A DNA stretch of 64,000 nucleotides, from assembly GCA_041657885.1 (NCBI GenBank), contig JBBABB010000001.1, positions 267,184 to 331,183 on the forward strand. The letters are read 5' to 3'. Positions 9,235 through 44,023 of this stretch are shown piece by piece. The position numbers were made by a program, and so were the translations under genes. The notes below the pieces were generated by a model. It was not told the origin of the DNA, made no database searches, and worked only from the letters and a program-made list of their open reading frames with translations. Origin of the DNA: Minisyncoccota bacterium (lineage in GTDB: Bacteria; Patescibacteriota; Minisyncoccia; Phycocordibacterales; UBA9973). Each line of letters opens with the position of its first letter. Positions within the stretch are counted from its first letter, which is position 1.

Positions 9235-10716
9235 TTATTTTACTTTCTTAACAATTTTCATGAATAAATCGTTGCGTTCATATTCGTTGTTAAACATTCC
9301 AAATGATGCAAAAGCAGGAGAGAAAAGAATTGTGTCACCTTTCTTTGCTAGTTTAATTGCTTTTTGAATTACGTCTTTCAAATCCTTCCCTATTTCATTC
9401 GTAATTGGTAATTTGTAATTCTTAATTAATTTTTCTGTTCCACTTCCTTCCAGAAAAATTACCGCTTTACAATATTTATTTATAACTTTTACAAAATCAC
9501 CAAGCGGAAGATTTTTGTCTGAACCCCCACAAATTAAAACAATTTTCTTTCCCCCTAGGCCTTGCCTAGGGGACACCAATGCTTCTATCCCCGCTATTGT
9601 CGCATCGGGGGTTGTAGCATTGTTATCATTGTAAATTTTTATTCCCTTATATATTTTTAGTAGTTGGAGACGTCCCTCTAATCCTTTAAATTTTTCTATA
9701 CTCTTTTTAATAGCTTCCATTGGCACGCCAAGCACTTGTGCGACGGCTACTGCACAAGCCATATTTTCTCGATGGTGGATTCCAGGGACATTGAATTTCC
9801 AACTTTCAACATCTTTTTTATCTATAACAATCAACTTTCCTTTTATTTCATTTTTATTTATTAACTTTTTCATTCCAGGACGGATAATAAGAATATCTCC
9901 CTTTTTTTGAAATTTAAAAATATTTGCCTTATCACTAAAATATCTCTCCATTGCTTTACTTGTAGTGAACTTAGTTGAACTATAATAATTCATATGGTCA
10001 GGCATAAATGTTGTAAAAACGGAAATATGAGGAGAAAGTTTCGCTTCGCCGAACCCTTGTAATTGCCAAGAATCTAATTCACAAACTAAAATATCACCAT
10101 CTTTTACTTTTTTAAGCAACGGTAATGTTGCAACACCACGAAGATTGCCACCTAAATATACATTTCTTTTTCCTCGTCCCGCCGTAGCCTTGGCGGAGGA
10201 GGATAAAATCTCATAAATCAAAGTTGTCGTCATCGATTTCCCTCTTGTCCCTGTTACTCCGATTATCATTACACCAGGTGCACATTTAGCAAAAAGAGAG
10301 ACGTCCATCTCAACGGGAATATTATTCTTTTTTGCCTCAGCAATATAGATGGAATCAAGAGGAACCCCTGCAGATTTTATAATCATATCTCTATCTTTAA
10401 AATTCTCAAGCCTATGTTCTCCTAAGACAAATTTTACTTTAGCTCCGTGATCGCGAAGCGATTTTACGGGGTTTTTTGAATTCTTATCCTTAATTCTTAA
10501 CCCGCCTGCTCCCGAACTATCGTGAGGGCGGGCAGGTTCGTAATTCTTAATTGCTTCTACTGAAGCTTTGAGTTGTTCTTTTGTCTTCAAGTCTGTGACT
10601 ATCAAATCTGCCCCGCATTCTGCCAAGAATTTGGTATATCCCAACCCACGTCCCAAAATCCCCAGTCCCATAACTGTAATTTTCTTCCCCTTAAAAAATT
10701 GTTTGTAATTTTTCAT
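9235..10716 (-). CDS. murD: UDP-N-acetylmuramoylalanine--D-glutamate ligase, carrying at least three in-frame GC-rich palindromic insertions
   Basis: The 493 aa protein has an N-terminal Rossmann fold (MGLGILGRGLG) and the Mur ligase P-loop GVTGTRGKSMTT. The segment ARPHDSSGAGGLRIKDKNSKNPVKSLRDHGAKV is atypical, and GC-rich repeats lie at 9551-9573, 10175-10202 and 10501-10535. Confidence 0.85.
   Translation of the reverse strand: MKNYKQFFKGKKITVMGLGILGRGLGYTKFLAECGADLIVTDLKTKEQLKASVEAIKNYEPARPHDSSGAGGLRIKDKNSKNPVKSLRDHGAKVKFVLGEHRLENFKDRDMIIKSAGVPLDSIYIAEAKKNNIPVEMDVSLFAKCAPGVMIIGVTGTRGKSMTTTLIYEILSSSAKATAGRGKRNVYLGGNLRGVATLPLLKKVKDGDILVCELDSWQLQGFGEAKLSPHISVFTTFMPDHMNYYSSTKFTTSKAMERYFSDKANIFKFQKKGDILIIRPGMKKLINKNEIKGKLIVIDKKDVESWKFNVPGIHHRENMACAVAVAQVLGVPMEAIKKSIEKFKGLEGRLQLLKIYKGIKIYNDNNATTPDATIAGIEALVSPRQGLGGKKIVLICGGSDKNLPLGDFVKVINKYCKAVIFLEGSGTEKLIKNYKLPITNEIGKDLKDVIQKAIKLAKKGDTILFSPAFASFGMFNNEYERNDLFMKIVKKVK
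9551..9573. repeat. Family B palindrome ccccctaggccttgcctagggga (in frame in murD; second copy 37527-37547 in miaA)
   Basis: It is the inverted repeat CCTAGGC/GCCTAGG flanked by C and G runs, and is identical apart from the central base in the two genes. Confidence 0.75.
10175..10202. repeat. Family C GC-rich repeat (CGCCGTAGCC-TTGG-CGGAGGCGG-like), in-frame copy in murD
   Basis: It reads cgtcccgccgtagccttggcggaggagg. Related copies are 20232-20259 (intergenic), 27369-27397 (leuS), and weaker variants at 37751-37776 and 14641-14665. Confidence 0.6.
10501..10535. repeat. Family A GC-rich palindrome (cccgcctgctcc-N-gggcgggcagg), in-frame copy in murD
   Basis: It reads cccgcctgctcccgaactatcgtgagggcgggcagg, a hairpin CCCGCC/GGCGGG. 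Other copies are at 40039-40069 (alr) and 42111-42140 (murB), and split arms lie at 19844-19854 and 19944-19953. Confidence 0.8.
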
Positions 10717-10761
10717 TATTTTACATTCTCACATTCTTGAGAATGTCGGAATGTTATTTTT

Positions 10762-12429
10762 TTAATTTATTTCTCTTTTGTAACAATCCTCACAGTATAT
10801 TTTATATTGGTTATGTTTTTCTTTGGGATATGTTGTTTGTGTTATATTACCACAAGAAGCACATTTCACTTCATTGAGAATTCTAGGATTTCGAGCATCC
10901 ATACGAGCTTGATGACGACAGTTGAAACATTTTGGTGGAATTGGTAATTTCATTCTTTTATAAAATGCAATTTCTCTTGAAATAAATTTATAATTATTAC
11001 CACAAGATTCACATTTCAAAATTTTATCAAGAAGCCCATCATCATTATACATCTCTGGATTTTTAGGTAAATCTTCATAATTACAATTTTCTTGCCCTTT
11101 TGTATGCGGAATATCATCTCGCCATCTAAATCCTTGCTCAATTGCCTCTTCTTTTGTAAGTGGCATATATTCATTAGCAATTGATTCATTATAACCAAAA
11201 GGACTCATCCAAATTGGAAAGAAGTTTCCCCAATCACCACTTTCTTTCATATTTTTAATAATTTGTGGCACAAGTTTTTCATATTCATCTTTGGGGTAAG
11301 GTTTATTTAAAATATGATATTCCTTATTTCGCAAACCAAAACAACCAAAACAATTCTTAGAATTATAGCAAGTATTCGAATAATACATGTAATTCGATTC
11401 TACAACGAGCTGTATCCCAATAACATTATTACTATTACCACCAGTTAAAACCTGATAACCGTACTCGACATCAACAGTAAAAGAAACATCTCGTGATTCA
11501 ATTGGGTTATTAACCGTATAACAATAACTACTATTTTCGCCTCCATTTTTTATATCAAAAGATTGTTGGACATTATGAGCATCATAAATATGATCCCCTG
11601 ACACATTATTATTATGAGACCCAAAGACAGTTCGCGTTGGCATTTTCTTTCTTAATTCTTCTCTTTTACCTAAAAAATATAAGATGCTTGCCTCACTATT
11701 TAGCGGATATTTTTCTAAAAATTTTTGATATTCTTCTTTTGTAAATTGTTCATTAAAAATACAATTATTTTTATGACGCAAGCCGACACAGCCAATACAA
11801 TTTACACAATCTCTGCAATCATAAAGTCCGATAGAATCTGCACAAGATTCACACTCTTGTGAATAAAATAATTTATTGCAGTTTACACAATCTATACACT
11901 CATAACAAAGCTCACATTTATTTATATAAAGATTATCTACACAATCAGTAGAATACCAAACAATATGTCCATAGTCACAATTTTCATCCTCAACACAACC
12001 AAAAATTAAATAACAATTTTTTGACCTAAGGGCAAAATTTGAATATTCACAATTTACACTATTTACATTAGTAATAGCAAAATGAGGCACTTTGTTTTCA
12101 AGTTCACCTAATTGTTCAATAAACGACTTGGTTAAATCTAAAGGAACAGCATATTCTCCTGCTTCCCAATCATCAGCCCACCATTCAGCGATATCCCAAA
12201 CAGGAAATGGAACATCAGGATTATACATAGAAATAATCATTTTGTTAGATTTGCTTGATGGTCGTTTATATAATGTTTTGAAATTTCTAAAAAGCATTTG
12301 CTGTTGTTGACGACATGTAGGGCAAAATTCTGGTACAGGTACTTTCATTCGATCGTAAAAAATATGATCATTCTGATCTACAATAAATCGATTTTTACAT
12401 TTTTGACAATTTTTTGTTTCTGTTTGCAT
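10762..12429 (-). CDS. Large cysteine-rich protein with N- and C-terminal CxxC zinc-ribbon modules (paralog 1 of 3 in the window; uncharacterised family)
   Basis: The 555 aa protein has more than 50 Cys. Terminal motifs of the form CxxC-x(n)-FY-x-K/R-x-K/D-V/L-P-x-P-x2-C-P/F-x-C-R are shared with the ORFs at 48864-50573 and 51444-53090. There is an internal duplicated block C.GC.GLR.K.Y.I.N.QY.KEEY. Confidence 0.6.
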   Translation of the reverse strand: MQTETKNCQKCKNRFIVDQNDHIFYDRMKVPVPEFCPTCRQQQQMLFRNFKTLYKRPSSKSNKMIISMYNPDVPFPVWDIAEWWADDWEAGEYAVPLDLTKSFIEQLGELENKVPHFAITNVNSVNCEYSNFALRSKNCYLIFGCVEDENCDYGHIVWYSTDCVDNLYINKCELCYECIDCVNCNKLFYSQECESCADSIGLYDCRDCVNCIGCVGLRHKNNCIFNEQFTKEEYQKFLEKYPLNSEASILYFLGKREELRKKMPTRTVFGSHNNNVSGDHIYDAHNVQQSFDIKNGGENSSYCYTVNNPIESRDVSFTVDVEYGYQVLTGGNSNNVIGIQLVVESNYMYYSNTCYNSKNCFGCFGLRNKEYHILNKPYPKDEYEKLVPQIIKNMKESGDWGNFFPIWMSPFGYNESIANEYMPLTKEEAIEQGFRWRDDIPHTKGQENCNYEDLPKNPEMYNDDGLLDKILKCESCGNNYKFISREIAFYKRMKLPIPPKCFNCRHQARMDARNPRILNEVKCASCGNITQTTYPKEKHNQYKIYCEDCYKREIN

Positions 12430-12462
12430 TTTAATTCTTAATTCGTAATTATTAATTCTTAA

Positions 12463-13959
12463 TTACTCAAAGCATTTCTGCAATTCTTCCATATCATCAA
12501 AATGGGTTTTCAAACCATTCACTTCTTGATAATCCTCATGACCTTTGCCAGCAATAAGGACGAAGTCGCCTGCGAGTGCTAACGAGCAGGCTTTCTCTAT
12601 GGCCATGTGTCTATCTTCTATTATATGAACTTTATCTTTAAGAGAGAGACCTTTCAATCCTTTTTTCATTTCTTTTAAAATATCTACTGGTTTTTCAGTT
12701 CGAGGATTATCAGACGTGAGAATAAGAATATCACTCATATCATAACCAATTTTTGCCATGATAGGCCGTTTGCTTTTATCTCGGTCTCCACCACAACCAA
12801 TAACTGCAATAACTCGTCCATTTTCCTTCATTCCATTTGCAGTTTTTAAAACATTTTCTAATGCGTCTGGAGTGTGAGCATAATCAACTATTCCAGTTAC
12901 TCCACTTTTACTTTTTATGTATTGAAATCGCCCTGGAACTGCTTCTAGTATTTTAATAATTTCTTTTATTTTTTCCCCGCCTTGTATTGCTTCAGGCGAG
13001 GCAAGTTTATCTCCATATAGAAGTAAAATTGCAACAGCATAAATTCCAAGCAAATTATAAGCATTAAATTCTCCAATTAATTTTGATTCAAATCTTTCGT
13101 TAAAATATTCGCACAGGTCTGACCTGTGCAAAATCTGCATAGGTCTGACCTGTGCATTTTTTAACCCAAAAGCATACTTTTTGGCTTTCGTCGTACTTAA
13201 CATATATTCTCCCTTTTCATCATCAATATTGGCTATTGCAAAACCTGTGGCGGGCAACATATCAAAGAAGCCCTTTTTTGCATCACAATAATTATCGATA
13301 GTTTTATGATAATCTAAGTGATCAAGTGTAAGATTTGTAAATATACCACCAACAAAAGAAAGTGCTGTTATTCTCTTTTCGCTAAACGAATGTGAGCTAA
13401 CTTCCATAAAACAATATTCGCAACTATTATCTACCATTCGAGCTAATAATTCATTTAAGGTTATGGAATCAGGAGTTGTTCTAGTTGCTTCAAAAAATTC
13501 ATCATTTATTTTGTTTACCACGGTCCCAATCATTCCAGCCTTATATCCTAAATTACGGAAAAGTTGGTGTAGAAGAGTCACGGTAGTAGTTTTTCCATTT
13601 GTTCCTGTCACCCCTATCAATTTTAATTTACGAGATGGATTACCATAAAAATTACCTGCAATTACGCCAACAACACTGTGGGTATCTGCTACTTTTATAT
13701 AAGTAACACCATTTTTAAATTCTTTAGGATTATTTTCATAAACTATTGTTGTTGCTCCTTTTTCAATAACTTCATCTATGAAAGAGTGTCCATCTAGAAC
13801 ATTCCCCCTTAACGCGACGAAAATAGCATGAGGTTCTATAACTTTAGAATTGAGCGACACGGAAGACACATGGGCTTCAAGATTACCATGACTTTCTAAA
13901 ACTGGGATATTTTCTAATAGTTCGCTTAGTATTTTCATCGATTTTATTTGTTTAACCAA
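12463..13959 (-). CDS. murE: UDP-N-acetylmuramoyl-L-alanyl-D-glutamate--2,6-diaminopimelate ligase
   Basis: The 498 aa protein has the Mur ligase P-loop GVTGTNGKTTT and a MurE-like C-terminal domain. It contains a tandem in-frame palindrome (13111-13155). Confidence 0.85.
   Translation of the reverse strand: MVKQIKSMKILSELLENIPVLESHGNLEAHVSSVSLNSKVIEPHAIFVALRGNVLDGHSFIDEVIEKGATTIVYENNPKEFKNGVTYIKVADTHSVVGVIAGNFYGNPSRKLKLIGVTGTNGKTTTVTLLHQLFRNLGYKAGMIGTVVNKINDEFFEATRTTPDSITLNELLARMVDNSCEYCFMEVSSHSFSEKRITALSFVGGIFTNLTLDHLDYHKTIDNYCDAKKGFFDMLPATGFAIANIDDEKGEYMLSTTKAKKYAFGLKNAQVRPMQILHRSDLCEYFNERFESKLIGEFNAYNLLGIYAVAILLLYGDKLASPEAIQGGEKIKEIIKILEAVPGRFQYIKSKSGVTGIVDYAHTPDALENVLKTANGMKENGRVIAVIGCGGDRDKSKRPIMAKIGYDMSDILILTSDNPRTEKPVDILKEMKKGLKGLSLKDKVHIIEDRHMAIEKACSLALAGDFVLIAGKGHEDYQEVNGLKTHFDDMEELQKCFE
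13111..13155. repeat. Family D palindrome (gcacaggtctgacctgtgc) in tandem, in frame in murE; a third copy in inverse orientation lies at 43968-43984
   Basis: It reads gcacaggtctgacctgtgcaaaatctgcataggtctgacctgtgc. The intergenic copy reads cacaggtcagacctgtg. Confidence 0.75.
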
Positions 13960-14576: not shown

Positions 14577-15770
14577 ATGAAAATTCTGGCGATTGAAACA
14601 TCGTGTGACGAAACAGGAATAAGTATATTGGAGGTGAAAAAACCTGCCTCGCGCCAAGGCGGGTCTGGTAAAAAAGATATTTTTAAAATTTTAGCCAATA
14701 ATATACATTCCCAAGTTGAAATTCACGCCCAATATGGCGGTGTTTTCCCTGCTCTGGCTAAAAGAGAACATATAAAGAATCTACCTATTCTTTTTGAAAA
14801 AACAATTAAACAAGCAAAAATAAAAATAGAACAAATTGATGCAATCGCTGTAACATATGGACCTGGTCTTGAACCAGCCCTTTGGACTGGAATAGTTTTT
14901 GCTAAGGAACTTTCAAAGAAATACAATATTCCAATCGTGAAAGTTAATCATATGGAGGGTCATATATTTTCTATATTTCCCAAAAAAAGAAAAACATTCA
15001 CAATTGATTCTGATAAAAAAATATTCCCAATGCTTTCACTTCTTGTTTCAGGTGGACACACTGAACTTATTTTAGTAAAAAATTGGCACAAATATAAAAA
15101 AATAGGGCAAACGCGAGATGATGCAGTTGGGGAAGCTTTTGATAAAGTAGCACGTATGCTTGGACTTCCCTATCCGGGAGGACCAGAGGTCTCAAAGCTG
15201 GCAGAAATAGAACGAGAAAAAATTCCCCTCTCGAGGGGTGGCTTGAAAAGTCGGGGTGGATGCATTCCACCTCCCCCTTCGGGTACTCCTCAAGAGGAGA
15301 ATCTGCAACTCCCACGTCCTATGATTTATTCAAAAGATTATGATTTCTCTTTTTCGGGATTAAAAACCGCAGTATTGTATCTAATAAGAGATTTAAAAAA
15401 AGAACATTCCGACATTCTTGAGAATGTCGGAATAAAACAAAAAATCGCAAAAGAATTTGAAGATGCGGTAGTTGAAACATTAGTATACAAAACAATAAAA
15501 GCAATTAAAGAATATAAAATAAAAACTCTTATTGTTGGTGGTGGGGTCTCGGCAAATAAATATTTACAGGAGATAATGAACAAAGAAGTAAAAAATCTAA
15601 ATTTTAGTAGTCGGACTACTAAAATTTTAACAAAAGTTCACTTCCCTTCTAAAAGTTTAACTGGAGATAATGCTCTTATGATTGCTATCGCTGGATATTT
15701 TCAATATAAAAATAAAAAAGGAGTAAAAAATTTAAATTCTATAAAAGCCAAAGGAAATTTATCTTTATGA
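14577..15770 (+). CDS. tsaD: tRNA N6-adenosine threonylcarbamoyltransferase TsaD (Kae1/Gcp family) with a roughly 30 aa in-frame GC-rich insertion
   Basis: MKILAIETSCDETGISIL... and the HMEGH metal site match TsaD. The segment IPLSRGGLKSRGGCIPPPPSGTPQEENLQLPRP, encoded by the GC-rich palindromic DNA at 15225-15318, is not part of canonical TsaD. Confidence 0.85.
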   Translation: MKILAIETSCDETGISILEVKKPASRQGGSGKKDIFKILANNIHSQVEIHAQYGGVFPALAKREHIKNLPILFEKTIKQAKIKIEQIDAIAVTYGPGLEPALWTGIVFAKELSKKYNIPIVKVNHMEGHIFSIFPKKRKTFTIDSDKKIFPMLSLLVSGGHTELILVKNWHKYKKIGQTRDDAVGEAFDKVARMLGLPYPGGPEVSKLAEIEREKIPLSRGGLKSRGGCIPPPPSGTPQEENLQLPRPMIYSKDYDFSFSGLKTAVLYLIRDLKKEHSDILENVGIKQKIAKEFEDAVVETLVYKTIKAIKEYKIKTLIVGGGVSANKYLQEIMNKEVKNLNFSSRTTKILTKVHFPSKSLTGDNALMIAIAGYFQYKNKKGVKNLNSIKAKGNLSL

Positions 15771-19743: not shown

Positions 19744-19792
19744 TAATTATACTTTATCATATTTAAATGGAAAATAAAAGGTGCTAAAAAAG

Positions 19793-19973
19793 TGCCCTCG
19801 GCCAGAGTCGGACTGACATTAGACCCTTAGGACGGGCCGGTTCCCCGCCTGCCTAAGCCTGTGCCCCCGACACGAATCGAACGTACATCTATCCCTTAGG
19901 ACGGGACTGTTCTATCCATTGAACTACGGGGGCATAGGCACTGGCGGGCAGGTATCCGTTGAACTACGAGGGC
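19793..19973 (-). tRNA. Second tRNA-Arg(CCT)-like gene, interrupted in its D-loop by a 109-nt insertion that contains the complete tRNA-Arg above. The 5' piece is 19953-19973 and the 3' piece is 19793-19843.
   Basis: The 5' piece GCCCTCGTAGTTCAACGGATA joined to the 3' piece GAACCGGCCCGTCCTAAGGGTCTAATGTCAGTCCGACTCTGGCCGAGGGCA forms a full 72-nt cloverleaf (acceptor GCCCTCG/CGAGGGC). The insert is bounded by CCCCGCCTGCC...GGCGGGCAGG palindrome arms of repeat family A. Confidence 0.4.
19862..19933 (-). tRNA. tRNA-Arg (anticodon CCT), complete and embedded within a larger interrupted tRNA-like gene
   Basis: The minus-strand read GCCCCCGTAGTTCAATGGATAGAACAGTCCCGTCCTAAGGGATAGATGTACGTTCGATTCGTGTCGGGGGCA has a perfect 7-bp acceptor stem, a D-arm GTTC/GAAC, anticodon loop GTCCTAA and T-loop TTCGATT. 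Confidence 0.6.
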
Positions 19974-19980: not shown

Positions 19981-20220
19981 CTACTCTTTAATATCCAAAA
20001 GCTCCATAATTTTAGGCTTATTAAAACCAACGACTAATTTATCATCAATCGCAATAACGGGAACTCCCATTTGTCCACTTTTATCTATCATTTCTTTTCT
20101 TTTTTCTAAATTAGAAGAAACATCAAAATCTTCATAAACAATTCCTTTAGATGTAAAGAAATCTTTTGCCATGCGACAAAAATGACATGTTGGTGTACTG
20201 TAAACTGTTACTTTGCTCAT
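19981..20220 (-). CDS. Glutaredoxin-like protein (NrdH/Grx family thiol-disulfide oxidoreductase)
   Basis: The 79 aa protein has a CHFC active site after an N-terminal beta strand (VTVYSTPTCHFCRMAK) and a thioredoxin-fold C-terminal (GVPVIAIDDKLVVGF). Confidence 0.75.
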   Translation of the reverse strand: MSKVTVYSTPTCHFCRMAKDFFTSKGIVYEDFDVSSNLEKRKEMIDKSGQMGVPVIAIDDKLVVGFNKPKIMELLDIKE

Positions 20221-20392
20221 AATTTTTCTTTGGCTCGCCGTAGCGGAAGCGGAGGCGGCTATTATTAATTAATAAAGGATTTTCATTGTAACATAAAAAT
20301 AAAAATAAAAACAATTGTGCGAGTAGCGAGAATCGGACTCGCGTTTTTTGCTTGGGAAGCAAACATATTACCACTATATGATACTCGCATTT

Positions 20393-20918: not shown

Positions 20919-22808
20919 CTAATTGTTACTACCACGTATCATTTTTAAAAACACATCATGGGATATGTTTATTTTTGCGTTTGATTGCATTCTTTTCTTA
21001 CCCCTTTTTTGTTTCTCAAGCAACTTTTTCTTTCTACTCACATCCCCTCCACCCACAACTTTACTTCTGTGCATAAGAACATCCTTTCTGAAAGCAGACA
21101 CTGATTCTGATGATATAATTCGCCCTAATGCCTTCCCTTGAATTTTAAAAGCAAATTGCTGTCTTGGAATAATATCTTTTAATTTTTCAACTTGGGCTTT
21201 CGCTTCATCTGTCACTTTTCTTCGTGATACCACTCGACAAAATGCCACCATTGGTTCATCAGCGACAACGATATCAAGCCTAACAACATCAGCTTCTCTG
21301 TACTCACCTATTTCATACGAAATAGAAGAATACCCCGAAGTGATGCTTTTCATATCATCAAAAAAATTACGCATGAGTTCTCGTAATGGCATTTCTAAAT
21401 CAATCGAGGACCTGTTGTCTCCAAAATTATCAGTTCCTTTAACTATGGCTTCGTGGTCATAGAAGAATGGCATAAGAGAACTTATATAGGTTGATGGGGT
21501 GATAATTTTTACATTGACCCACGGCTCAAAAACTTTGACGATATTTCCATCATCAGGGAAAAGATGAGGTGAGTAAATAATTTCTTCTTTTCCATTACGA
21601 AGTAATACTTTGTAAGTAATAGAAGGCATTGTTACTATTAATTGTAAATTAAATTCACGACTCAACCTTTCTGTAATTATTTCTAAATGAAGCATCCCCA
21701 AAAAACCACAGCGATATCCTCTCCCAAGTGAACCTGAATTTTCTTCTTCATATGAAAAAGATGAATCTGATAGTCGTAGTCGCCCCAGTGCTTGTCTGAG
21801 ATTGGGAAAATCATCCTGACTTTCTGGGTACACAGAGGCCCAAACTACTGGTTTAGGATTTTTATACCCCGGTAAAGCAAGCATCGGCTTTTTAAGAAAA
21901 GTAATAGTATCTCCAACTGATGCAATTCCTGGTTTTTTAATACCTGTCACAATATAACCAATTTCTCCACTACTTAAAAATTCACGTGGTTGTTCTTCGG
22001 GAGAAAATGTCCCAACTTCAAGTGAAATAAATTTTTCGGCAGAAACTGCAAACAAAAGTGATTCTCCTTTTTTAAATCCTCCATTAACCACACGTACATA
22101 AACTATAACTCCTCTATGATTATCATATTTGAAATCAAAAACTAAAGCTCGCCCTGTGTTTGATGATAATGCTAAATTTTCTCCAATATGAGGACAAGGA
22201 ATCTTTTTTATTATTTCTTCAAGTAACATTGCCACACCCTCACCCGTTTTTCCCGAAACAAGTAAAATAGTGTCTGGGTCGATGTCTAAAAGTAGCGCCA
22301 CTTCCATTTTTATTTCTTCAACTCGAGCCAGTGATGAATCAATCTTGGAAAGTACTGGTATAATCACAAGCCCAGAATCACGCGCCATTTGTAAGGTAGT
22401 GAGTGTTTGAGCTTGCACGCCCTGAGTCGCGTCCACGAGCAAAATAGAGCCTTCTACGGCCTTAAGAGCGCGAGAAACTTCATAAGAGAAGTCAATATGC
22501 CCAGGCGTATCTATCAAATTCAAAATATAATTCTCACCCCCTCCATGCCTCCCCCAAGAGGAGAGGTTTTGAATTTCCCCTTCCCCTTTGGGGAGGGGTT
22601 GGGGTGAGGTGTACTCCATTCTAACGGGCTGCATTTTTATAGTAATACCACGTTCTCTTTCCAATTCCATTGAATCTAAAACTTGATCTTTCATTTTACG
22701 TTTTTCTATCGTGCCAGTTATTTCTATCATTCGGTCAGCCAAAGTACTCTTGCCATGGTCAATGTGGGCAATAATTGAAAAATTTCTGATATTCTTAATA
22801 TCTGTCAT
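20919..22808 (-). CDS. lepA: Elongation factor 4 (LepA) with an in-frame MITE-like insertion of about 26 aa in the GTPase domain
   Basis: FSIIAHIDHGKSTLADR, NLIDTPGH and the LepA C-terminal domain match EF4. The insertion SPQPLPKGEGEIQNLSSWGRHGGGEN is encoded by the GC-rich element at 22534-22612. Confidence 0.9.
   Translation of the reverse strand: MTDIKNIRNFSIIAHIDHGKSTLADRMIEITGTIEKRKMKDQVLDSMELERERGITIKMQPVRMEYTSPQPLPKGEGEIQNLSSWGRHGGGENYILNLIDTPGHIDFSYEVSRALKAVEGSILLVDATQGVQAQTLTTLQMARDSGLVIIPVLSKIDSSLARVEEIKMEVALLLDIDPDTILLVSGKTGEGVAMLLEEIIKKIPCPHIGENLALSSNTGRALVFDFKYDNHRGVIVYVRVVNGGFKKGESLLFAVSAEKFISLEVGTFSPEEQPREFLSSGEIGYIVTGIKKPGIASVGDTITFLKKPMLALPGYKNPKPVVWASVYPESQDDFPNLRQALGRLRLSDSSFSYEEENSGSLGRGYRCGFLGMLHLEIITERLSREFNLQLIVTMPSITYKVLLRNGKEEIIYSPHLFPDDGNIVKVFEPWVNVKIITPSTYISSLMPFFYDHEAIVKGTDNFGDNRSSIDLEMPLRELMRNFFDDMKSITSGYSSISYEIGEYREADVVRLDIVVADEPMVAFCRVVSRRKVTDEAKAQVEKLKDIIPRQQFAFKIQGKALGRIISSESVSAFRKDVLMHRSKVVGGGDVSRKKKLLEKQKRGKKRMQSNAKINISHDVFLKMIRGSNN
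22534..22612 (-). mobile_element. Solo MITE-like GC-rich element (family F) inserted in frame in lepA
   Basis: It reads ctcacccccctccatgcctcccccaagaggagaggttttgaatttccccttcccctttggggaggggttggggtgag, with terminal inverted repeats CTCACCCC/GGGGTGAG. It is related to the leuS copies. Confidence 0.55.
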
Positions 22809-37005: not shown

Positions 37006-37935
37006 ATGAATAAAATCATTGTTATACTCGGCCAAACCTCTACTGGAAAGAGTGATTTTGCAGTAGAAGTAGCAAAAAATATAAATGGCGAAATAATTTC
37101 AGCAGATTCAAGACAAGTTTATAAAGGTATGAATTTAGGAACTGGTAAAATTACAAAAAAAGAAATGTGGGGTATACCGCATTATTTACTTGATATCACT
37201 TCCCCCTCACGAGTTTTTTCCGTTAGTGATTTCCAAAAATTGGCAAACAAAAAAATAAAAGAAATTTTAGAAAAAGGTAAAACTCCCATAATTTGTGGTG
37301 GTACAGGATTTTATATTGATTCCATCATAAATAGAACAATTTTCCCTGAAGTTCCACCAAATAAAAAACTCCGAGAAATTCTCGAGAGAAAAACCACAGA
37401 AAAACTTTTGGAAATATTAAAAAAAATAGATAAAAATCGCGCCCAAAATATTGACCAAAAAAATAGAATTCGCCTGATTCGTGCAATTGAAATAGTAAAA
37501 ACTCTCGGCAAGGTCCCAAGTCTTTCCCCTAGGCCGTGCCTAGGGGAAGATAAATATTTAAAAATTGGACTCACTATGCCACCTGAAGTTTTGAAAGAAA
37601 GAATCAAGACTCGTTTACTCATACGCATTAAAAAAGGTATGATAAAAGAAGTTGAAAATTTACACAATCAAGGCGTGTCTTGGAAACGAATGAATGCTCT
37701 TGGGCTTGAATATCGATACGTTAGTAATTATTTAAAAGATAGCAAAACCATGCCTCCGCTAAAGCTTCGGCAGGCGAAGAAAGAAATGATTGAAAAATTA
37801 AATACCGAGATTTGGCATTACGCTAAACGTCAAAAGACATGGTTTAAAAGAGATTTTAACACAATTTGGATAGACCCAAGAAAAAAGAGTGAGAAAAATA
37901 AAGCTCTAAAAGAGATAAAGAGATTTTTAAAATAG
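37006..37935 (+). CDS. miaA: tRNA dimethylallyltransferase MiaA (contains two in-frame GC-rich palindromes)
   Basis: The P-loop ILGQTSTGKSDFAVEVAK and the IPT-family motif SADSRQVYKGMNLGTGKI match MiaA. In-frame repeats lie at 37527-37547 (SPRPCLGE) and about 37751-37776. Confidence 0.8.
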   Translation: MNKIIVILGQTSTGKSDFAVEVAKNINGEIISADSRQVYKGMNLGTGKITKKEMWGIPHYLLDITSPSRVFSVSDFQKLANKKIKEILEKGKTPIICGGTGFYIDSIINRTIFPEVPPNKKLREILERKTTEKLLEILKKIDKNRAQNIDQKNRIRLIRAIEIVKTLGKVPSLSPRPCLGEDKYLKIGLTMPPEVLKERIKTRLLIRIKKGMIKEVENLHNQGVSWKRMNALGLEYRYVSNYLKDSKTMPPLKLRQAKKEMIEKLNTEIWHYAKRQKTWFKRDFNTIWIDPRKKSEKNKALKEIKRFLK

Positions 37936-38995: not shown

Positions 38996-39001
38996 GGATT
39001 T

Positions 39002-39935: not shown

Positions 39936-41099
39936 TTATTTAATAACTCTTGGCAAAAGAGCACTTATCCTTGTTGTTGCTTCATAATTTATCGTTCCTG
40001 ACTCCTTAGCAATTTGTTCAGCAGTAATTTCATTTTTACCCCGCCTGCTCCCTCGTGAGGGCGGGCAGGCCTGTTTTCCTAAAATTACGACTTCATCCTC
40101 TGGCAACACATCTTTAATATGAGAAATATCAACTACAATCATATTCATAGCAACTCTCCCCAAAATTTTTGCTCTCTTACCTTTTACTAAAACTTCCCCA
40201 GTATTTGAAAGCAGACGTGGAATACCATCAGCATAACCCTGTGGAATTACTGCTATCTTGGTCGTTTTCTTTGTTATATATGTAAGCCCATAACCGATTG
40301 GATGATTCGCGGGGAGAACTTTAATCTGAGCTACGTGTGTCACCCATTTCAAAACTGGTTTCAAAATTATTTTCTTTTTATTTAAATATTCTAAATGTTC
40401 ACTTGGCCACATTCCATAAAGCCCGATACCAAGTCGAACAATATTGTGTAAGCTATTTCCTTTTTCATAAACTAGAATTCCAGAAGTTGCTGAAATGTGG
40501 GTTTTAATATTTTCAAAACTATTTTTTCTAAAAATTTCTACACATTTATGATACATATCTATTTGTTTCTGTGCGTAGGTGAAATTCATGGTGTCTTCAA
40601 TATTTGCAAAATGAGAATAAATTCCATCGAGTTCTATATTCTTCAACTTTTTGAGTTCAACAATAAAATTATCAATCTGGCTTGGCATTATTCCTTCTCT
40701 ACCAAGACAAGAATCAATAGCAACATGTACTTTGACTTTCATTTTTAAACTCCCAGCAATAAAATTTATTTTCAATAAATGAATCAAATCAAAAGCAGAT
40801 ATTATCGCTTTTGATTTTATGGCTCTTTTTATACCATCTCCATTCAAATAACCAAATACCAAAACGGGTTTATTTGTAACCTTTCCAACTCTTTCAAATT
40901 CTTCAATACTATTTACTTGGAAATAATCTGTATAAGGAGCAATAATTTTCGTCACCTCAACATCCCCATGCCCGTAAGCATTTGCTTTTATAACAGAAGC
41001 AATCTTTGTACCGTTTTTCAGTAATCCTCGAAACTGCTTGATATTATGTATCAAGTTTTCTTTTGAAATCTCTATATATGAAAGTGGTAAATTTTGCAT
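39936..41099 (-). CDS. alr: Alanine racemase with an in-frame family A palindrome insertion. Its start is revised to the internal Met because the longer ORF overlaps tRNA-Leu.
   Basis: ASVIKANAYGHGDVEV contains the PLP-lysine motif and the fold is Alr-like. QACPPSRGSRRGKNEI is encoded by ccccgcctgctccctcgtgagggcgggcagg at 40039-40069. The track ORF 39936-41177 would overlap the tRNA at 41102-41183. Confidence 0.75.
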   Translation of the reverse strand: MQNLPLSYIEISKENLIHNIKQFRGLLKNGTKIASVIKANAYGHGDVEVTKIIAPYTDYFQVNSIEEFERVGKVTNKPVLVFGYLNGDGIKRAIKSKAIISAFDLIHLLKINFIAGSLKMKVKVHVAIDSCLGREGIMPSQIDNFIVELKKLKNIELDGIYSHFANIEDTMNFTYAQKQIDMYHKCVEIFRKNSFENIKTHISATSGILVYEKGNSLHNIVRLGIGLYGMWPSEHLEYLNKKKIILKPVLKWVTHVAQIKVLPANHPIGYGLTYITKKTTKIAVIPQGYADGIPRLLSNTGEVLVKGKRAKILGRVAMNMIVVDISHIKDVLPEDEVVILGKQACPPSRGSRRGKNEITAEQIAKESGTINYEATTRISALLPRVIK

Positions 41100-41101
41100 T
41101 G

Positions 41102-41183
41102 TGCCGGAGGAGAGAATCGAACTCTCACCCCTTACGAGACACGATTTTGAGTCGTGCGCGTCTACCAATTCCGCCACTCCGGC
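41102..41183 (-). tRNA. tRNA-Leu (anticodon CAA), type II with a long variable arm
   Basis: The minus-strand read GCCGGAGTGGCGGAATTGGTAGACGCGCACGACTCAAAATCGTGTCTCGTAAGGGGTGAGAGTTCGATTCTCTCCTCCGGCA has anticodon loop CTCAAAA and T-loop TTCGATT. Confidence 0.8.
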
Positions 41184-41220
41184 AATAGAAGTAGTATACT
41201 AAAAATCTATTTAAAATCAA

Positions 41221-42384
41221 TTATATTATCTCCGGTTCTTGCTCTAGTGTTATCCCAAATTTTTGCTCAACTATTTTTATTATTTCATTTCTAGCATTTA
41301 TAAGATCTTCTTTTGTAGCATTTCCGTTGTTTACCAAGACAAGGGCATTCTTGTCATAGACAGAAACATTACCAAATGACTTCCCTTTTAATCCTGCATT
41401 TTCAATGAGCCAACCAGCGGGAATTTTTACTAGGTCTTGCCTAGTCGTTTCCAGTGGAAAAAATTTAGCATTTGGGAAATCTGCTTTAATTTTATCGGCT
41501 ACACTATTTGAAACAATAGGATTCTTGAAAAATGAACCGACATTTGGAATTTCTTTTGGGTTTGGTAATTTTTCTTTACGAATTTCAATAATTGCTTCGC
41601 GAATTTGTTTTAAATTAGGATTCTCTATTTTGTGTTCTTCGAAATATTTTGAGACGCCAGGATATCCTAATGCTGGAGAAAGGTTTTTTTCTCCTCCTTG
41701 TTGAGGAGGAGTGCCCTTTGGGGCGAGGTGGTGACTAATTAATTCTAAATCACCACCCCCTACCCCCTCCTCCAAAAGGAGGGGAGGAACTTTATTAAGT
41801 CTATATGTTACAGCGGTTATTATGTATTTCCCTTTATCTTCATTTTTGAAAATACTATCACGGTACCCAAATTTACAATCTTTATTTGAAATAGTTTTAA
41901 TTTTATTTTCTTTGATATCAAAAACCTCCACTTCCAAAATGGTATCTTTAACTTCTACTCCATAAGCCCCGACATTTTGGACTGGCGTTGCTCCAACTGT
42001 TCCAGGAATTGCCGAAAGTGCCTCTAATCCTTGCAGATTCATTTCAACAGTTTTCTCTACAATTTTGTCCCAAATCTCGCCAGCTCCAACTTTTATATCT
42101 GCATATTTTTCCGTTTCGTTCCCGCCTGCTCCCTTGTGAGGGCGGGCAGGTATTATTTCAAAACCTTTAATTTCTATTTTTATAGCAAACACATCAATAA
42201 TTCCATCCGAAAATACAATATTTGAACCCCCGCCTAATATAAAAATTGGGGTATTTTTTTCTCTTGCCATTAAATAAACATTTCCTAGCTCATCTTTTTT
42301 ATCAATTTTTACAAAATAGCGAAATTGCCCTCCTATATGTAGTGATGAATAATCCCGGATATCTACGTATTCTTGTATTTTCAT
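41221..42384 (-). CDS. murB: UDP-N-acetylenolpyruvoylglucosamine reductase MurB with two in-frame GC-rich palindromic insertions
   Basis: It has an FAD-binding domain (ILGGGSNIVF) and a MurB C-terminal domain. Inserts occur at ARPHKGAGGNETEK (family A, 42111-42140) and VPPLLLEEGVGGGDLELISHHLAPKGTPPQQGGEK (41690-41790). Confidence 0.8.
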   Translation of the reverse strand: MKIQEYVDIRDYSSLHIGGQFRYFVKIDKKDELGNVYLMAREKNTPIFILGGGSNIVFSDGIIDVFAIKIEIKGFEIIPARPHKGAGGNETEKYADIKVGAGEIWDKIVEKTVEMNLQGLEALSAIPGTVGATPVQNVGAYGVEVKDTILEVEVFDIKENKIKTISNKDCKFGYRDSIFKNEDKGKYIITAVTYRLNKVPPLLLEEGVGGGDLELISHHLAPKGTPPQQGGEKNLSPALGYPGVSKYFEEHKIENPNLKQIREAIIEIRKEKLPNPKEIPNVGSFFKNPIVSNSVADKIKADFPNAKFFPLETTRQDLVKIPAGWLIENAGLKGKSFGNVSVYDKNALVLVNNGNATKEDLINARNEIIKIVEQKFGITLEQEPEII

Positions 42385-42425
42385 ATTACTTGCAATTATA
42401 TCATATATGAGATAAAATAGTAAGT

Positions 42426-43940
42426 ATGAAAAAAGAACAAACCGAGCAACAAAAAATTGGGTATTTTATTAAGGAATTGAGAGAAAGCCGTGGTATGACT
42501 CAAGAAGCATTTGCGAAAGCACTGGAGACATCGCAAAGCTCTATTCCCCGCATGGAAAAGGGTGAGCAAAATTTCACAACTGAATTATTATTAAAAATAA
42601 GTAAAGTCCTAGACCATCAGGTTGTCTGCATAAATGATTCAATAGATTTTCAAGTACACGGCGGGAAAAAGTTAAGCGGAAGTATCAAAACAAATTTTTC
42701 TAAGAATGGTTCTGTTGGGCTTCTTTGTGCTTCACTACTCAACAAAGGGATAACAACCCTTCACGGCATCGCGCGCATCGAAGAAGTTAATCGTGTAATT
42801 GAAATCCTTGAAAGTATTGGAGTTCAAACAAAATGGGTTGGTCCAAATTCTCTTCAGCTTAATCCACCTAAACAACTAGCTTTAGAAAAAATAAATGTTG
42901 AATCTGCAGTTAAAACTCGTTCTATTGTAATGCTCATGGGTCCGCTCATACATTTATTCCCCACTTTTAAACTTCCTCACGCTCAAGGATGCAACCTTGG
43001 TAAACGCACTATCGCTGCTCACACTTATGCCCTTGAAGATTTAGGCGTAAAGATAAAGACAACTGCAACAAATTATGAAATAGAGTCCAAGAAATTAAAG
43101 CCTGGAAATATTGTCATGTATGAATCCGGAGATACTGCTTGCGAAAATGTCCTCACCGCTGCGTCAAAAATTGATGGAATCACAACTATTAGTTTCGCCA
43201 GTGCCAACTATATGGTTCAGGAAGTTTGTTTTTTCCTTGAAACACTTGGAGTAAAGATTGACGGCATTGGTACCTCTACTCTCGTTGTCCACGGAATAAA
43301 AGAAATTAATAAAAATATTGAATACTGGAATAGTGAAGACCCTATTGAATCAATGATGTTCATATCTGCAGCGGTTATCACTGACTCAGAACTCGTAATC
43401 ACCCGTTGCCCTATTGATTTCCTTTCGCTTGAATTAGAAAAAATGAAAAGAATGGGATTAAAATATAAAATATTGAAAAGATATCTCTCGTACAATGGAC
43501 GAACAAAATTAGCTGACATTAAAATACTACCTGGTAAATTAGTTGCTCTTGCTGACAAAATTTCTACAAATCCATACCCTGGAATAAATATTGATAATTT
43601 GCCATTTTTCGTACCTATTGCAATAAAAGCAAAAGGTCAGACCATGATTCACGACTGGGTCTACGAGAACCGCGCTATTTACTTCACAGAACTTAATCGT
43701 CTTGGAGCCAATGTCACTCTCGCTGATCCGCATCGGGTTTATATTCAAGGTGGTACACCATTAAAACCTGCTCAAGTCGTTTGTCCTCCTGCGCTTCGTC
43801 CATCTATGGTAATACTCGTCTCAATGCTTGCCGCTCCTGGTACTTCAATCTTGCGTAATGTCTATATGATTAATCGTGGTTATGAAGAAATAGCCGAACG
43901 TCTAAACTCTATTGGCGCTGATATTAAAATTTTGAAATAA
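42426..43940 (+). CDS. murA: UDP-N-acetylglucosamine 1-carboxyvinyltransferase (MurA/EPT family) fused to an N-terminal XRE-type helix-turn-helix domain
   Basis: Residues 10-65, IGYFIKELRESRGMTQEAFAKALETSQSSIPRMEKGEQNFTTELLLKISKVL, form a Cro/C1-type HTH. The remaining roughly 430 aa match MurA (KLSGSIKTNFSKNGSVGLLCASLL, active-site loop KLPHAQGCNLGKRTIAAH). Confidence 0.7.
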   Translation: MKKEQTEQQKIGYFIKELRESRGMTQEAFAKALETSQSSIPRMEKGEQNFTTELLLKISKVLDHQVVCINDSIDFQVHGGKKLSGSIKTNFSKNGSVGLLCASLLNKGITTLHGIARIEEVNRVIEILESIGVQTKWVGPNSLQLNPPKQLALEKINVESAVKTRSIVMLMGPLIHLFPTFKLPHAQGCNLGKRTIAAHTYALEDLGVKIKTTATNYEIESKKLKPGNIVMYESGDTACENVLTAASKIDGITTISFASANYMVQEVCFFLETLGVKIDGIGTSTLVVHGIKEINKNIEYWNSEDPIESMMFISAAVITDSELVITRCPIDFLSLELEKMKRMGLKYKILKRYLSYNGRTKLADIKILPGKLVALADKISTNPYPGINIDNLPFFVPIAIKAKGQTMIHDWVYENRAIYFTELNRLGANVTLADPHRVYIQGGTPLKPAQVVCPPALRPSMVILVSMLAAPGTSILRNVYMINRGYEEIAERLNSIGADIKILK

Positions 43941-44023
43941 AAAACCACAACACATTTTATTCATTTTCACAGGTCAGACCTGTGACTGTGAGAACTCAAG
44001 AAAAATGCTAAAATGTATATGTA

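What the first reader, a model, noticed from the sequence alone, without database searches (positions are those of the whole stretch)
9551..43984. At least three further families of short GC-rich palindromes are embedded in frame in housekeeping genes
Family B (CCCCTAGGCC-K-TGCCTAGGGG) is in murD and miaA. Family C (CGCCGTAGCC...GGCGRAGGCGG) is in murD, leuS, miaA and tsaD plus one intergenic copy. Family D (CACAGGTCWGACCTGTG) is tandemly duplicated inside murE and has one intergenic copy. Together with families A, E and F, this AT-rich genome has an unusually dense load of GC-rich palindromic repeats that are tolerated inside proteins. The three insertions each in murD and leuS make these genes look like hotspots.
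Basis: seen in the sequence. Interest (0 to 1): 0.5.

Follow-up and report, generated by a model that had tools for sequence, protein, structure and literature searches.

The report
REP-like palindromes inside CPR bacterial genes
The short GC-rich palindromes sitting in frame inside murD, murE, miaA, leuS and other essential genes of this tiny AT-rich (Paceibacteria, CPR) genome are real, and at least two of the families are the REP sequences of a hairpin-recognising transposase (RAYT) that is widespread in this group, so this is a known kind of selfish DNA in a new lineage rather than a new mechanism.

Summary
GC-rich hairpins are 5-13 times more frequent than in shuffled sequence. The window comes from a Candidatus Paceibacterota (CPR) MAG. 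Alignments with orthologues and solved structures show that the in-gene copies are insertions. They are in frame, stop-free, and lie in disordered surface loops.

The new result is what they are. In related Paceibacteria, a Y1/HUH transposase gene is flanked at fixed distances, in inverted orientation, by family B or family D palindromes. Its best fold match is E. coli TnpA_REP bound to a REP hairpin. It also carries one in-frame copy just after its HUH motif. More distant RAYTs are each flanked by a different palindrome. This is the REP/RAYT (REPtron) arrangement.

About 46% of strong hairpins in 1.3 Mb of Paceibacteria DNA are intragenic. One MurD loop holds different palindromes in most lineages. 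Genomes 90-98% identical differ by hairpin insertions.

Intragenic REPs and Rickettsia RPEs are already published, so this is a new member of a known kind. No RAYT lies in the 64-kb window. Families A, C, E and F have no demonstrated RAYT link.

The parts
9549..9575 (.). Family B palindrome TTCCCCCTAGGC-CTT-GCCTAGGGGA inside murD (ORF 9235-10716, - strand). It encodes VSPRQGLGG at aa 381-389.
   Evidence: Same site occupied in L001 and L002, empty in L004. Lies in a loop between H370-380 and E392-398, with pLDDT<50 at 385-387.
37523..37549 (.). Family B palindrome inside miaA (37006-37935, + strand). It encodes LSPRPCLGE at aa 173-181.
   Evidence: Falls in a variable region relative to PDB MiaA 3d3q.
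10172..10202 (.). Family C imperfect palindrome CCTCGTCCCGCCGTAGCCTTGGCGGAGGAGG in murD. It encodes SSSAKATAGRG at aa 172-182.
   Evidence: Present at the same site in L001 and several MurD homologues, absent in L002 and L004.
27371..27400 (.). Family C copy in leuS (27039-29849, - strand). It encodes ESAFAKGYGVT around aa 817.
   Evidence: Falls in a variable region relative to T. thermophilus LeuS.
20233..20260 (.). Family C intergenic copy, between tRNA-Gly (20317-20388) and a small glutaredoxin-like ORF that starts at 20219 on the - strand.
37752..37781 (.). Diverged family C copy in miaA. It encodes MPPLKLRQAK. This region has about 9 extra residues relative to PDB 3d3q.
14640..14668 (.). 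GC-rich weak palindrome in tsaD (14577-15770, + strand), encoding PASRQGG. It is a 7-aa insertion relative to three orthologues. Its membership in family C is doubtful.
13111..13155 (.). Family D tandem pair (GCACAGGTCTGACCTGTGC and GCATAGGTCTGACCTGTGC, 26-nt period) in murE (12463-13959, - strand). It encodes AQVRPMQILHRSDLC, a 14-aa insertion relative to three orthologues.
43967..43985 (.). Family D intergenic copy TCACAGGTCAGACCTGTGA, 27 nt after the murA stop. No T-run follows it.
10507..10545 (.). Family A-like palindrome (CCTGCCCGCCCTCAC...GGGAGCAGGCGGG) in murD. It encodes EPARPHDSSGAGG within a disordered insertion spanning aa 60-89.
40040..40078 (.). Family A copy in alr (- strand). 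It encodes ACPPSRGSRRG.
42121..42159 (.). Family A copy in murB (41221-42384, - strand). It encodes PARPHKGAGG. This is an insertion relative to P. aeruginosa MurB.
22577..22610 (.). Family E-like copy in lepA. It encodes PQPLPKGEGE, within a 20-aa insertion relative to solved EF4.
27557..27590 (.). Family E copy in leuS. It encodes PSPTLPKGKG at aa 755-764.
29108..29141 (.). Family E copy in leuS. It encodes PSPALPKGKG at aa 238-247, at the start of a 142-aa insertion that also holds a DUF559 domain.
15404..15437 (.). Family F palindrome ATTCCGACATTCTTGAGAATGTCGGAAT in tsaD, encoding HSDILENVGI. Intergenic copies lie at 10723-10756, 56857-56892 and 57183-57220.
6320..6363 (.). Nested palindromes in murC. 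The 21-nt CCTGCCTGACGGCAAGGCAGG is inserted inside a GGAAG/TCGGACTTCC palindrome. Together they encode EACLTARQVGLP. L001 has only GGAAGTCCGACTTCC at this site.
41691..41784 (.). Two further GC-rich hairpins in murB (CTCCTCCTTGTTGAGGAGGAG and CCCCTCCTCCAAAAGGAGGGG). They lie inside an insertion of about 34 aa relative to solved MurB.
15599..15627 (.). Palindrome with a GTCNGAC core (TTTAGTAGTCGGACTACTAAA) in tsaD, encoding FSSRTTKI. Relatives carry GGAAGTCCGACTTCC (KSDFL) at the same site.

Best explanation
The palindromes are REP-type elements: short hairpin-forming repeats that are recognised, and probably moved as single-stranded DNA, by a REP-associated tyrosine transposase (RAYT, a Y1/HUH enzyme of the IS200/IS605 superfamily). 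The genome is about 88% coding and AT-rich, so many insertions land in genes. The copies that survive fall in a stop-free frame, add a multiple of three bases, and sit in a surface loop that tolerates a short Gly/Pro/Ala/Arg/Ser-rich peptide. Intergenic copies accumulate at about nine times higher density. Their flanks are often A/T-rich and themselves complementary, which makes them look like terminators.

Shown:
- The families recur within and between genomes.
- The in-gene copies are insertions in frame and in loops.
- RAYT genes in related Paceibacteria are flanked by family B or family D palindromes at fixed distances in inverted orientation, and carry an internal copy.
- Different RAYT clades have different palindromes.
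- Closely related genomes differ by the presence of hairpin insertions.

Inferred:
- That the RAYT catalyses the spread.
- That this genome encodes such a RAYT outside the window.
- That families A, C, E and F spread the same way.
- That secondary processes act on the palindromes: slippage giving tandem copies, nesting, and template-switch correction keeping the arms perfect.
For: Family recurrence and excess over chance.

Insertion status: nearly every indel of at least 3 aa between window genes and three orthologous loci is a GC-rich hairpin in the genome that has it. Among 75 MurD genes there are 95 insertions, with GC 0.50 against 0.36 and hairpin score >=14 in 46% against 4.8% of controls. 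PDB alignments show the same for MurB, LepA, LeuS and MiaA. In the MurD model the inserts are loops of low pLDDT.

Frame constraint: family B has one open frame per orientation, and every in-gene copy uses it.

RAYT link: L050 ORF 4045-4725 hits Pfam Y1_Tnp at 25.9 bits (cut-off 23) and NCBIfam REP_Tyr_transpos at E=2e-10. It has the HUH motif (NHFH) and the Tyr motif (YIHLN), both invariant in the alignment. Its AF2 model has pLDDT 83.5, and the top Foldseek PDB hit is 4er8_A, 'REP associated tyrosine transposase bound to a REP hairpin' (E 6e-6), followed by the ISDra2 and IS608 TnpA structures.

Flanking palindromes: family B sits 43-54 nt upstream, at +264..266 inside, and 2-12 nt after the stop in L050, L022, L027 and L020. 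Family D variants take the same positions in L141, L143 and L144. Distant RAYTs in L040, L135, L106 and L097 are each flanked by their own palindrome. The upstream and downstream copies have reverse-complementary loops, so they are inverted.

Internal copy: in all 120 best RAYT homologues the peptide after HUH is SPRQGLGE (B), SPRSDLGE or SHRSDLW/C (D).

Distribution: 42 of 55 exact family B loci are in Paceibacteria/Parcubacteria, with several copies per genome.

Recent change: L080 and L074 (~90% nt identity) differ by hairpin inserts in MurC and MurD. L070 and L071 (98.4%) differ by a 42-nt double hairpin in MurE.
Against: No RAYT gene lies in the 64-kb window. The rest of this genome could not be read, so a cognate enzyme in this organism is only inferred. 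Families A, C, E and F were not found next to any RAYT, and A, D, E and F were not seen outside this window in their exact form.

The palindromes lack the GTAG or CGTC foot tags that define most described REP families (PMC3733652). The RAYT scores below NCBIfam's curated cut-off (40.6 against 80 bits). It has no sequence-level PDB match.

Mobility itself is not demonstrated. The same MurD loop holding many different perfect palindromes could also come from in-place evolution with arm-to-arm correction. Most singlet REPs in other bacteria are thought to be immobile.
Confidence: 0.7

Rival explanations
1. The hairpins are made and reshaped locally by replication errors, without any transposase. 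The processes would be template switching or quasi-palindrome correction, foldback priming, and slippage. Families would arise only by inheritance and by selection for stable stems.
For: Tandem copies occur (murE 13111-13155; L064 and L073; L070). Nested and very long perfect palindromes grow at one MurD site, and variants differ by symmetric changes in both arms. Intergenic family B copies have flanks that are exactly complementary for up to 12 nt beyond the shared core.
Against: Identical 18-21-nt cores occur at dozens of unrelated sites in unrelated genes and in different genera. Local copying cannot produce that. The clean filled/empty pairs show no half-palindrome at the empty site. The fixed RAYT-flanking arrangement has no explanation under this model. 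It most likely contributes as a secondary process.
Confidence: 0.12
2. The palindromes are selected functional structures in RNA or DNA and are maintained in place for that function. Candidate functions include terminators or attenuators, RNase processing or mRNA-stabilising hairpins, protein-binding sites, and DNA-uptake signals.
For: Intergenic copies are nine times denser than genic ones and often have A-run/T-run flanks typical of bidirectional terminators. Stems are kept perfect at orthologous sites while the surrounding genes are only about 70% identical. REPs in other bacteria are known to act as terminators and mRNA stabilisers (PMC3733652).
Against: Each in-gene copy is absent from many orthologues of the same essential gene. 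For example, 22 of 75 MurD genes have the minimal loop with no hairpin. Positions and sequences differ between lineages, and there are many unrelated families. In-gene copies mostly lack a T-run. No Rfam family matches. A DNA-uptake signal would be one sequence, not ten or more.
Confidence: 0.08
3. Families A, C, E and F (and perhaps others) are a separate class of selfish palindromes with no dedicated transposase. They would resemble the CGTC REPs or Rickettsia RPEs, and only B and D would be RAYT-linked.
For: No RAYT was found next to A, C, E or F in 1.6 Mb of related DNA. C is an imperfect, asymmetric palindrome. E has an asymmetric G-rich tail, unlike B and D. CGTC-type REPs are reported to lack a dedicated transposase (PMC3733652).
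Against: Sampling was small and biased toward family B and murD loci. RAYT clades with other cognate palindromes clearly exist in the group (L040, L135, L106, L097). More than 7,600 RAYT homologues exist and only 120 were inspected.
Confidence: 0.3

Closest known systems
REP / RAYT systems (REPtrons, REPINs) of Proteobacteria, for example E. coli REP with TnpA_REP (PDB 4ER8) and Pseudomonas REPINs
   Same: Both involve short GC-rich hairpin repeats in many copies. Both have a single Y1/HUH transposase gene flanked by its own repeats in inverted orientation. Different RAYT lineages have different repeats. The copies are enriched in intergenic DNA and look like terminators. The best fold match of the Paceibacteria enzyme is TnpA_REP bound to a REP hairpin.
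   Different: The host is a CPR bacterium with a tiny AT-rich genome. The units are mostly single, very short (15-25 nt) and near-perfect palindromes. They have no GTAG or CGTC foot tag. About half of the strong copies are inside genes. The RAYT gene itself carries an in-frame copy after its HUH motif. The enzyme scores below the NCBIfam RAYT cut-off.
Intragenic REPs described by Di Nocera et al. 2013 (PMC3733652): GTAG REPs in Opitutus terrae and CGTC REPs (RPE-4 and RPE-6) in Rickettsia conorii
   Same: These are REP-type palindromes located entirely within ORFs of known proteins and translated as short peptide insertions. Some genes carry two insertions.
   Different: The taxa and sequence families differ. 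Here the density inside core cell-wall and translation genes is high. The same loop is occupied by different palindromes across lineages. A RAYT link is shown for two families.
Rickettsia palindromic elements (RPE-1 and relatives; Ogata et al. 2000, from my own knowledge)
   Same: Both are selfish palindromic DNA inserted in frame into essential genes of a reduced AT-rich genome and tolerated on the protein surface.
   Different: RPE-1 is 100-150 bp, encodes 30-50 residues and has no known transposase. The elements here are 15-35 nt, encode 5-12 residues, and two families are tied to a RAYT.
Small dispersed repeats (SDR) of Nostoc (Elhai et al. 2008) and GC clusters of yeast mitochondria (both from my own knowledge)
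   Same: Both are very small (about 20-30 nt) hairpin repeats that nest inside one another and occur in AT-rich genomes. Yeast GC clusters can sit in frame in var1.
   Different: The hosts differ, no RAYT association has been described for them, and they are mostly non-coding.

Membership tests
REP / RAYT system | Short (about 20-40 nt) GC-rich palindromic repeats dispersed in many copies | tested here: met
   There are 2-4 copies per family in 64 kb and at least 8 families. This is a 5-13-fold excess over shuffles. Family B has several copies per genome in relatives.
REP / RAYT system | A Y1 transposase gene flanked by the cognate repeats in inverted orientation (REPtron) | tested here: met
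   Met in related genomes. Family B flanks the gene in L050, L022, L027 and L020. Family D variants flank it in L141, L143 and L144. Other palindromes flank it in L040, L135, L106 and L097. The loops of the upstream and downstream copies are reverse complements.
REP / RAYT system | The cognate RAYT is present in the same genome as the repeats | tested here: inconclusive
   No Y1/RAYT ORF lies in the 64-kb window. The contig is 362 kb, and the rest of it could not be read.
REP / RAYT system | The enzyme has the HUH motif, the catalytic tyrosine and the TnpA_REP / IS200 fold | tested here: met
   NHFH and Y(I/V)HxN are invariant. Pfam Y1_Tnp scores above its gathering cut-off. NCBIfam RAYT is the best family but scores below its cut-off. 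The top Foldseek hit is 4er8_A, followed by ISDra2 and IS608 TnpA.
REP / RAYT system | Extragenic location | tested here: not met
   173 of 379 strong hairpins lie inside ORFs of at least 100 aa. In the window most copies of B, C, D, A and E are inside genes. Density is still nine times higher in non-coding DNA.
REP / RAYT system | A GTAG or CGTC tetranucleotide tag at one foot of the hairpin (Di Nocera 2013 classes) | tested here: not met
   In 51 aligned family B copies the flanks are T(-1)/A(+1) and A/T-rich, with no GTAG or CGTC. Family C has GTAG only in its interior.
REP / RAYT system | Cleavage or strand transfer of the repeat by the RAYT | not testable with these tools
   This needs biochemistry. 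Only indirect evidence is available, namely presence/absence between close genomes.
Rickettsia palindromic elements (RPE-1 type) | Element length about 100-150 bp, encoding 30-50 residues | tested here: not met
   Units here are 15-35 nt and encode 5-12 residues.
Rickettsia palindromic elements (RPE-1 type) | In-frame insertion in ORFs of housekeeping proteins, at surface positions | tested here: met
MITE (IS-derived, with terminal inverted repeats and target-site duplication) | A target-site duplication flanking the element | tested here: not met
   The clean filled/empty comparison in murC (a 21-nt insert between GGAAG and TCSGAC) shows at most a 1-nt repeat. No duplication is visible in the L080/L074 pairs, but their flanks are too diverged for exact boundaries.
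Intrinsic terminators | A GC-rich hairpin immediately followed by a T-run, downstream of a gene | tested here: inconclusive
   Many intergenic copies fit. In-gene copies and the intergenic D copy at 43967 do not.

The most novel reading that the evidence does not exclude
In Paceibacteria, RAYT-driven turnover of tiny REP hairpins may be a lineage-wide source of loop insertions in essential proteins. This reading has four parts:
- New copies home to existing hairpins or to a few permissive loops.
- Old copies are replaced or corrected to the REP variant current in that lineage, giving concerted evolution at orthologous sites.
- The RAYT keeps a copy of its own substrate inside its coding sequence, perhaps for self-regulation.
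- Pairs of REP arms can carry cargo, as suggested by the complete tRNA-Arg gene bounded by family-A arms and inserted in the D-loop of another tRNA-Arg gene at 19790-19973.
Probability: 0.2. Interest if true: 0.75.

Novelty: new member of a known kind. Interest (0 to 1): 0.55.

Why it matters
CPR/Patescibacteria proteins are known for odd insertions, and their genomes are among the smallest and most gene-dense. A REP/RAYT system that writes short peptides into the loops of Mur ligases, aminoacyl-tRNA synthetases and tRNA-modification enzymes would explain part of that. It would also give a natural experiment on which protein loops tolerate insertions.

The system offers a compact RAYT clade with very simple cognate hairpins: perfect 9-bp stems and a 1-3-nt loop. 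The REP and the enzyme can be seen to co-vary (SPRQGLGE, then SPRSDLGE, then SHRSDLW). This is useful for studying HUH-transposase specificity.

For annotation, these hairpins inflate gene lengths, can break metagenome assemblies, and can hide tRNA genes.

Tried and rejected
- **Exact-sequence lookup of the window's MurD.** It found no record, so the rest of this genome could not be fetched. Relatives were used instead.
- **Literature search.** Searches for CPR plus palindromic insertions found nothing specific. They did turn up the general paper on intragenic REPs.
- **Rfam at gathering thresholds.** It found only six tRNAs, and no RNA family covers the hairpins.
- **Transposases in the window.** Pfam on 30 further window ORFs found none. 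tblastn and jackhmmer with RAYTs found none in the window.
- **Sequence search of the RAYT against PDB.** Both a single sequence and a profile gave nothing. Only the fold search linked it to TnpA_REP.
- **Half-palindromes at empty sites.** I first read two BLAST gaps as showing half-palindromes at empty sites, which would have favoured local inverted duplication. Realignment showed this was a gap-placement artefact. One script failed on unsupported gap penalties.
- **Close strain pairs for the window genome.** None exist in the collections. The next MurD is about 71-73% identical by BLASTP, or 79% in the MAFFT alignment.
- **DNA-uptake sequence, restriction-site and assembly-artefact readings.** These were rejected. 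There are many families. The same insert occurs in independent assemblies of different genomes. The RAYT association also argues against them.
- **Shared reading frame in family A.** I expected family A to use one frame. It does not: murD and murB use PARPH.GAGG, while alr uses CPPSRGSRR.

Full report
**Source and genes.** The window is 29-38% G+C. Its MurD is 100% identical to a protein from a 'Candidatus Paceibacterota bacterium' MAG, on a contig of 361,958 nt. The next relatives are Nomurabacteria/Paceibacteria at about 70% identity. NCBIfam and Pfam identify the following genes (tsaD by synteny):

| Gene | Coordinates | Strand |
|---|---|---|
| murC | 6242-7618 | - |
| murD | 9235-10716 | - |
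| murE | 12463-13959 | - |
| tsaD | 14577-15770 | + |
| lepA | 20919-22808 | - |
| murJ | 22886-24574 | - |
| leuS | 27039-29849 | - |
| miaA | 37006-37935 | + |
| alr | 39936-41177 | - |
| murB | 41221-42384 | - |
| murA | 42426-43940 | + |

**Checking the observation.** Family B matches exactly at 9552-9572 and 37526-37546, with 0 expected. Family D is at 13112, 13138 and 43968, with 0.04 expected. Family C is in murD, leuS, miaA (a diverged copy) and one intergenic site. These four align as one family. The tsaD sequence shares only a 9-mer and lacks 6 nt.

The unbiased repeat finder recovered B and D. It also recovered three further families: A (CCCGCCTGCTCCCTCGTGAGGGCGGGCAGG), E (CCCTTCCCTTTGGGAAGGG+TTGGGGATGGG) and F (ATTCCGACATTCTTGAGAATGTCGGAAT). 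A GC-island scan and a hairpin scan added copies in murC, murB, tsaD and tsaC. Perfect GC-rich hairpins number 12-16 against 0.9-3.4 in dinucleotide shuffles. Rfam finds nothing but six tRNAs.

**The in-gene copies are insertions.** The window MurD is 493 aa, while many homologues are 442-446 aa. An alignment of 27 homologues shows variable short inserts at many loops, often with recurring peptides such as SPRQGLGE, SSSAKATAGRG, RKSDFL, HRSDLC and LPAQAG.

I ran codon-aware alignments of seven window genes with three syntenic loci. In murC, murD, murE, tsaD and an aminoacyl-tRNA synthetase, nearly every indel of at least 3 aa is a GC-rich hairpin in the genome that has it, and the site is empty in the others. 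The PBP and aspS genes show no such insertions.

In 75 distinct MurD genes fetched from metagenomes there are 95 internal insertions. Their G+C is 0.50, against 0.36 in matched controls. A hairpin score of at least 14 occurs in 46% of them against 4.8% of controls, and a score of at least 20 in 22% against 1.3%.

Alignments with solved structures show the same pattern for four more proteins:
- MurB: aa 76-92 and 205-239.
- LepA: aa 67-88.
- LeuS: aa 240-381.
- MiaA: about aa 245-255.

In an AlphaFold model of the window MurD, the inserts (aa 60-89, 172-183, 243-250, 381-391) lie between secondary-structure elements and have low confidence.

Family B has only one stop-free frame in each orientation, and every in-gene copy uses it. 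These facts fit translation through the insert, followed by purifying selection.

**Distribution.** The exact family B palindrome occurs in 55 stretches among 185,579 species genomes. About 42 of these are in Paceibacteria/Parcubacteria MAGs, several per genome. The 13 others are scattered, which is about the number expected by chance for 18 specified bases (my estimate). About a third of the CPR copies lie in long ORFs at recurrent orthologous sites. The rest are intergenic.

In 1.32 Mb of non-redundant Paceibacteria DNA there are 379 strong GC-rich hairpins, and 173 (46%) are inside ORFs. Density is 0.15 per kb in coding DNA against 1.31 per kb in non-coding DNA. This sample is biased toward family B and murD loci.

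**What they are.** Three loci had three or four family B copies with the same spacing. The gene between them is L050 4045-4725, encoding 226 aa. The evidence that it is a RAYT-type Y1 transposase is as follows:
- It hits Pfam Y1_Tnp above the gathering score, and NCBIfam 'REP-associated tyrosine transposase' is its best family (E 2e-10, below the curated cut-off).
- It has an invariant HUH motif (PNHFH) and tyrosine motif (Y-I-H-L-N).
- Its model (pLDDT 83.5) matches best 4er8_A, the E. coli REP-associated tyrosine transposase bound to a REP hairpin, followed by the ISDra2 and IS608 transposases.

The arrangement around the RAYT gene follows one pattern:

| Loci | Palindrome | Upstream of start | Inside | After stop |
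|---|---|---|---|---|
| L050, L022, L027, L020 | Family B | 43-54 nt | +264..266 | 2-12 nt |
| L141, L143, L144 | GCATAGGTCWGACCTATGC (family D variants) | same positions | same positions | same positions |

More distant RAYTs are each flanked by a different palindrome: L040 by CCACCCAGCGCCTWAGGCGCTGGGTGG, and L135, L106 and L097 by TGTCAAAG...CTTTGACA. The upstream and downstream copies have reverse-complementary loops, so they are inverted. This is the REPtron arrangement.

In all 120 best homologues (out of more than 7,600), the peptide after HUH is the translation of the cognate palindrome: SPRQGLGE (B), SPRSDLGE (a hybrid) or SHRSDLW/C (D). It is an 11-residue insertion relative to the distant RAYTs. 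Families B and D of the window are therefore REPs of two sister RAYT clades. Some sources already label these proteins RayT.

**Dynamics.** At the MurD loop between GIEAL and ILICGG, the orthologues behave as follows:
- 22 of 75 have a minimal 6-aa loop and no hairpin.
- 40 of 43 with at least 10 aa contain a hairpin.
- All 20 with at least 15 aa contain strong, tandem or nested palindromes of up to 54 nt.

Variants at this site differ by symmetric changes in both arms, for example CCCCTAGGC, CCGCTAGGC and CCCATAGGC. This is a true hotspot. I cannot tell whether it reflects repeated insertion into a permissive loop, homing to existing hairpins, or in-place evolution with arm correction.

Several other observations bear on dynamics:
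- Nesting is seen in the window's murC, where 21 nt are inserted inside GGAAG/TCGGACTTCC with no target duplication beyond 1 nt.
- Tandem copies occur in murE.
- Intergenic family B copies often have flanks that are complementary well beyond the shared core. This suggests secondary palindrome extension.
- L080 and L074 (~90% nt identity) differ cleanly by hairpin inserts in MurC and MurD. L070 and L071 (98.4%) differ by a 42-nt double hairpin in MurE.

**Limits.** Families A, C, E and F have no RAYT link so far, and A, D (exact form), E and F were seen only in this window. The palindromes lack GTAG and CGTC tags. Catalysis and mobility are inferred.

**Comparison with what is known.** REPs inside genes have been reported in Opitutus terrae and Rickettsia conorii, where RPE-4 and RPE-6 are CGTC REPs (PMC3733652). 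RPE-1 in Rickettsia is the classic case of in-frame selfish palindromes (from my own knowledge). No paper on such elements in CPR bacteria was found in the library.

I therefore file this as a new member of a known kind. What is notable is the host lineage, the small size and perfection of the units, the high intragenic share, the hotspot loops in Mur ligases, and the copy inside the RAYT gene.

Noticed in passing
window 19790-19973 (- strand): A tRNA gene lies inside another tRNA gene. The annotated tRNA-Arg(CCT) at 19861-19933 sits within a 109-nt insertion bounded by family-A-like arms (CCTGCCCGCC...GGCAGGCGGG). That insertion interrupts the D-loop of a second tRNA-Arg(CCT). Removing the 109 nt in silico gives a clean 73-nt tRNA by ARAGORN. 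The outer tRNA has an unusual T-loop (TCCGACT) and may be a pseudogene.
   Followed up: partly
window 28752-29048 (leuS, aa 268-366): LeuS carries a DUF559 (Vsr-like endonuclease) domain. It lies inside a 142-aa insertion just before the editing domain, next to a family E palindrome. It looks like a homing-endonuclease-type domain insertion.
   Followed up: no
L050 4311-4335; also L022, L027, L020, L143, L144: The RAYT gene carries an in-frame copy of its own REP directly after the HUH motif. The copy co-varies with the flanking REP across thousands of homologues. Its function is unknown; self-regulation is one possibility.
   Followed up: partly
window 10762-12429, 48864-50573, 51444-53090 (all - strand): Three paralogues encode an uncharacterised protein of about 550 aa with internal repeats (repeat finder families D1-D3). 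Neither Pfam nor NCBIfam matches them. One copy sits between murE and murD, as it does in relatives.
   Followed up: no
window 42426-42635 (murA N-terminus): MurA has an N-terminal Xre-type helix-turn-helix extension of about 70 aa.
   Followed up: no
window 45996-48173 and 53171-54700: Two paralogous TraG/VirD4-like coupling-protein ATPases are present, with 77-78% identical DNA stretches. One has a treble-clef zinc finger.
   Followed up: no
window 41101-41183 and 39936-41177: The longest alr ORF (GTG start at 41177) overlaps tRNA-Leu(CAA). The true alr start must lie further downstream.
   Followed up: no
window 58775-60305: An HNH endonuclease gene lies next to an N6/N4 DNA methyltransferase gene. 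This is probably a restriction-modification pair.
   Followed up: no
L128 about 1636-1651 compared with L107 about 2635: The leader just upstream of the 16S rRNA gene differs between relatives by a complete 16-nt hairpin (TCAGCCCTAGGCTGA). The next hairpin is also replaced by a different one.
   Followed up: no
L050 and L144: The RAYT gene sits between gyrB and thrS in two lineages whose RAYTs are 65% identical. This fits vertical inheritance at a fixed chromosomal place rather than IS-like hopping.
   Followed up: no
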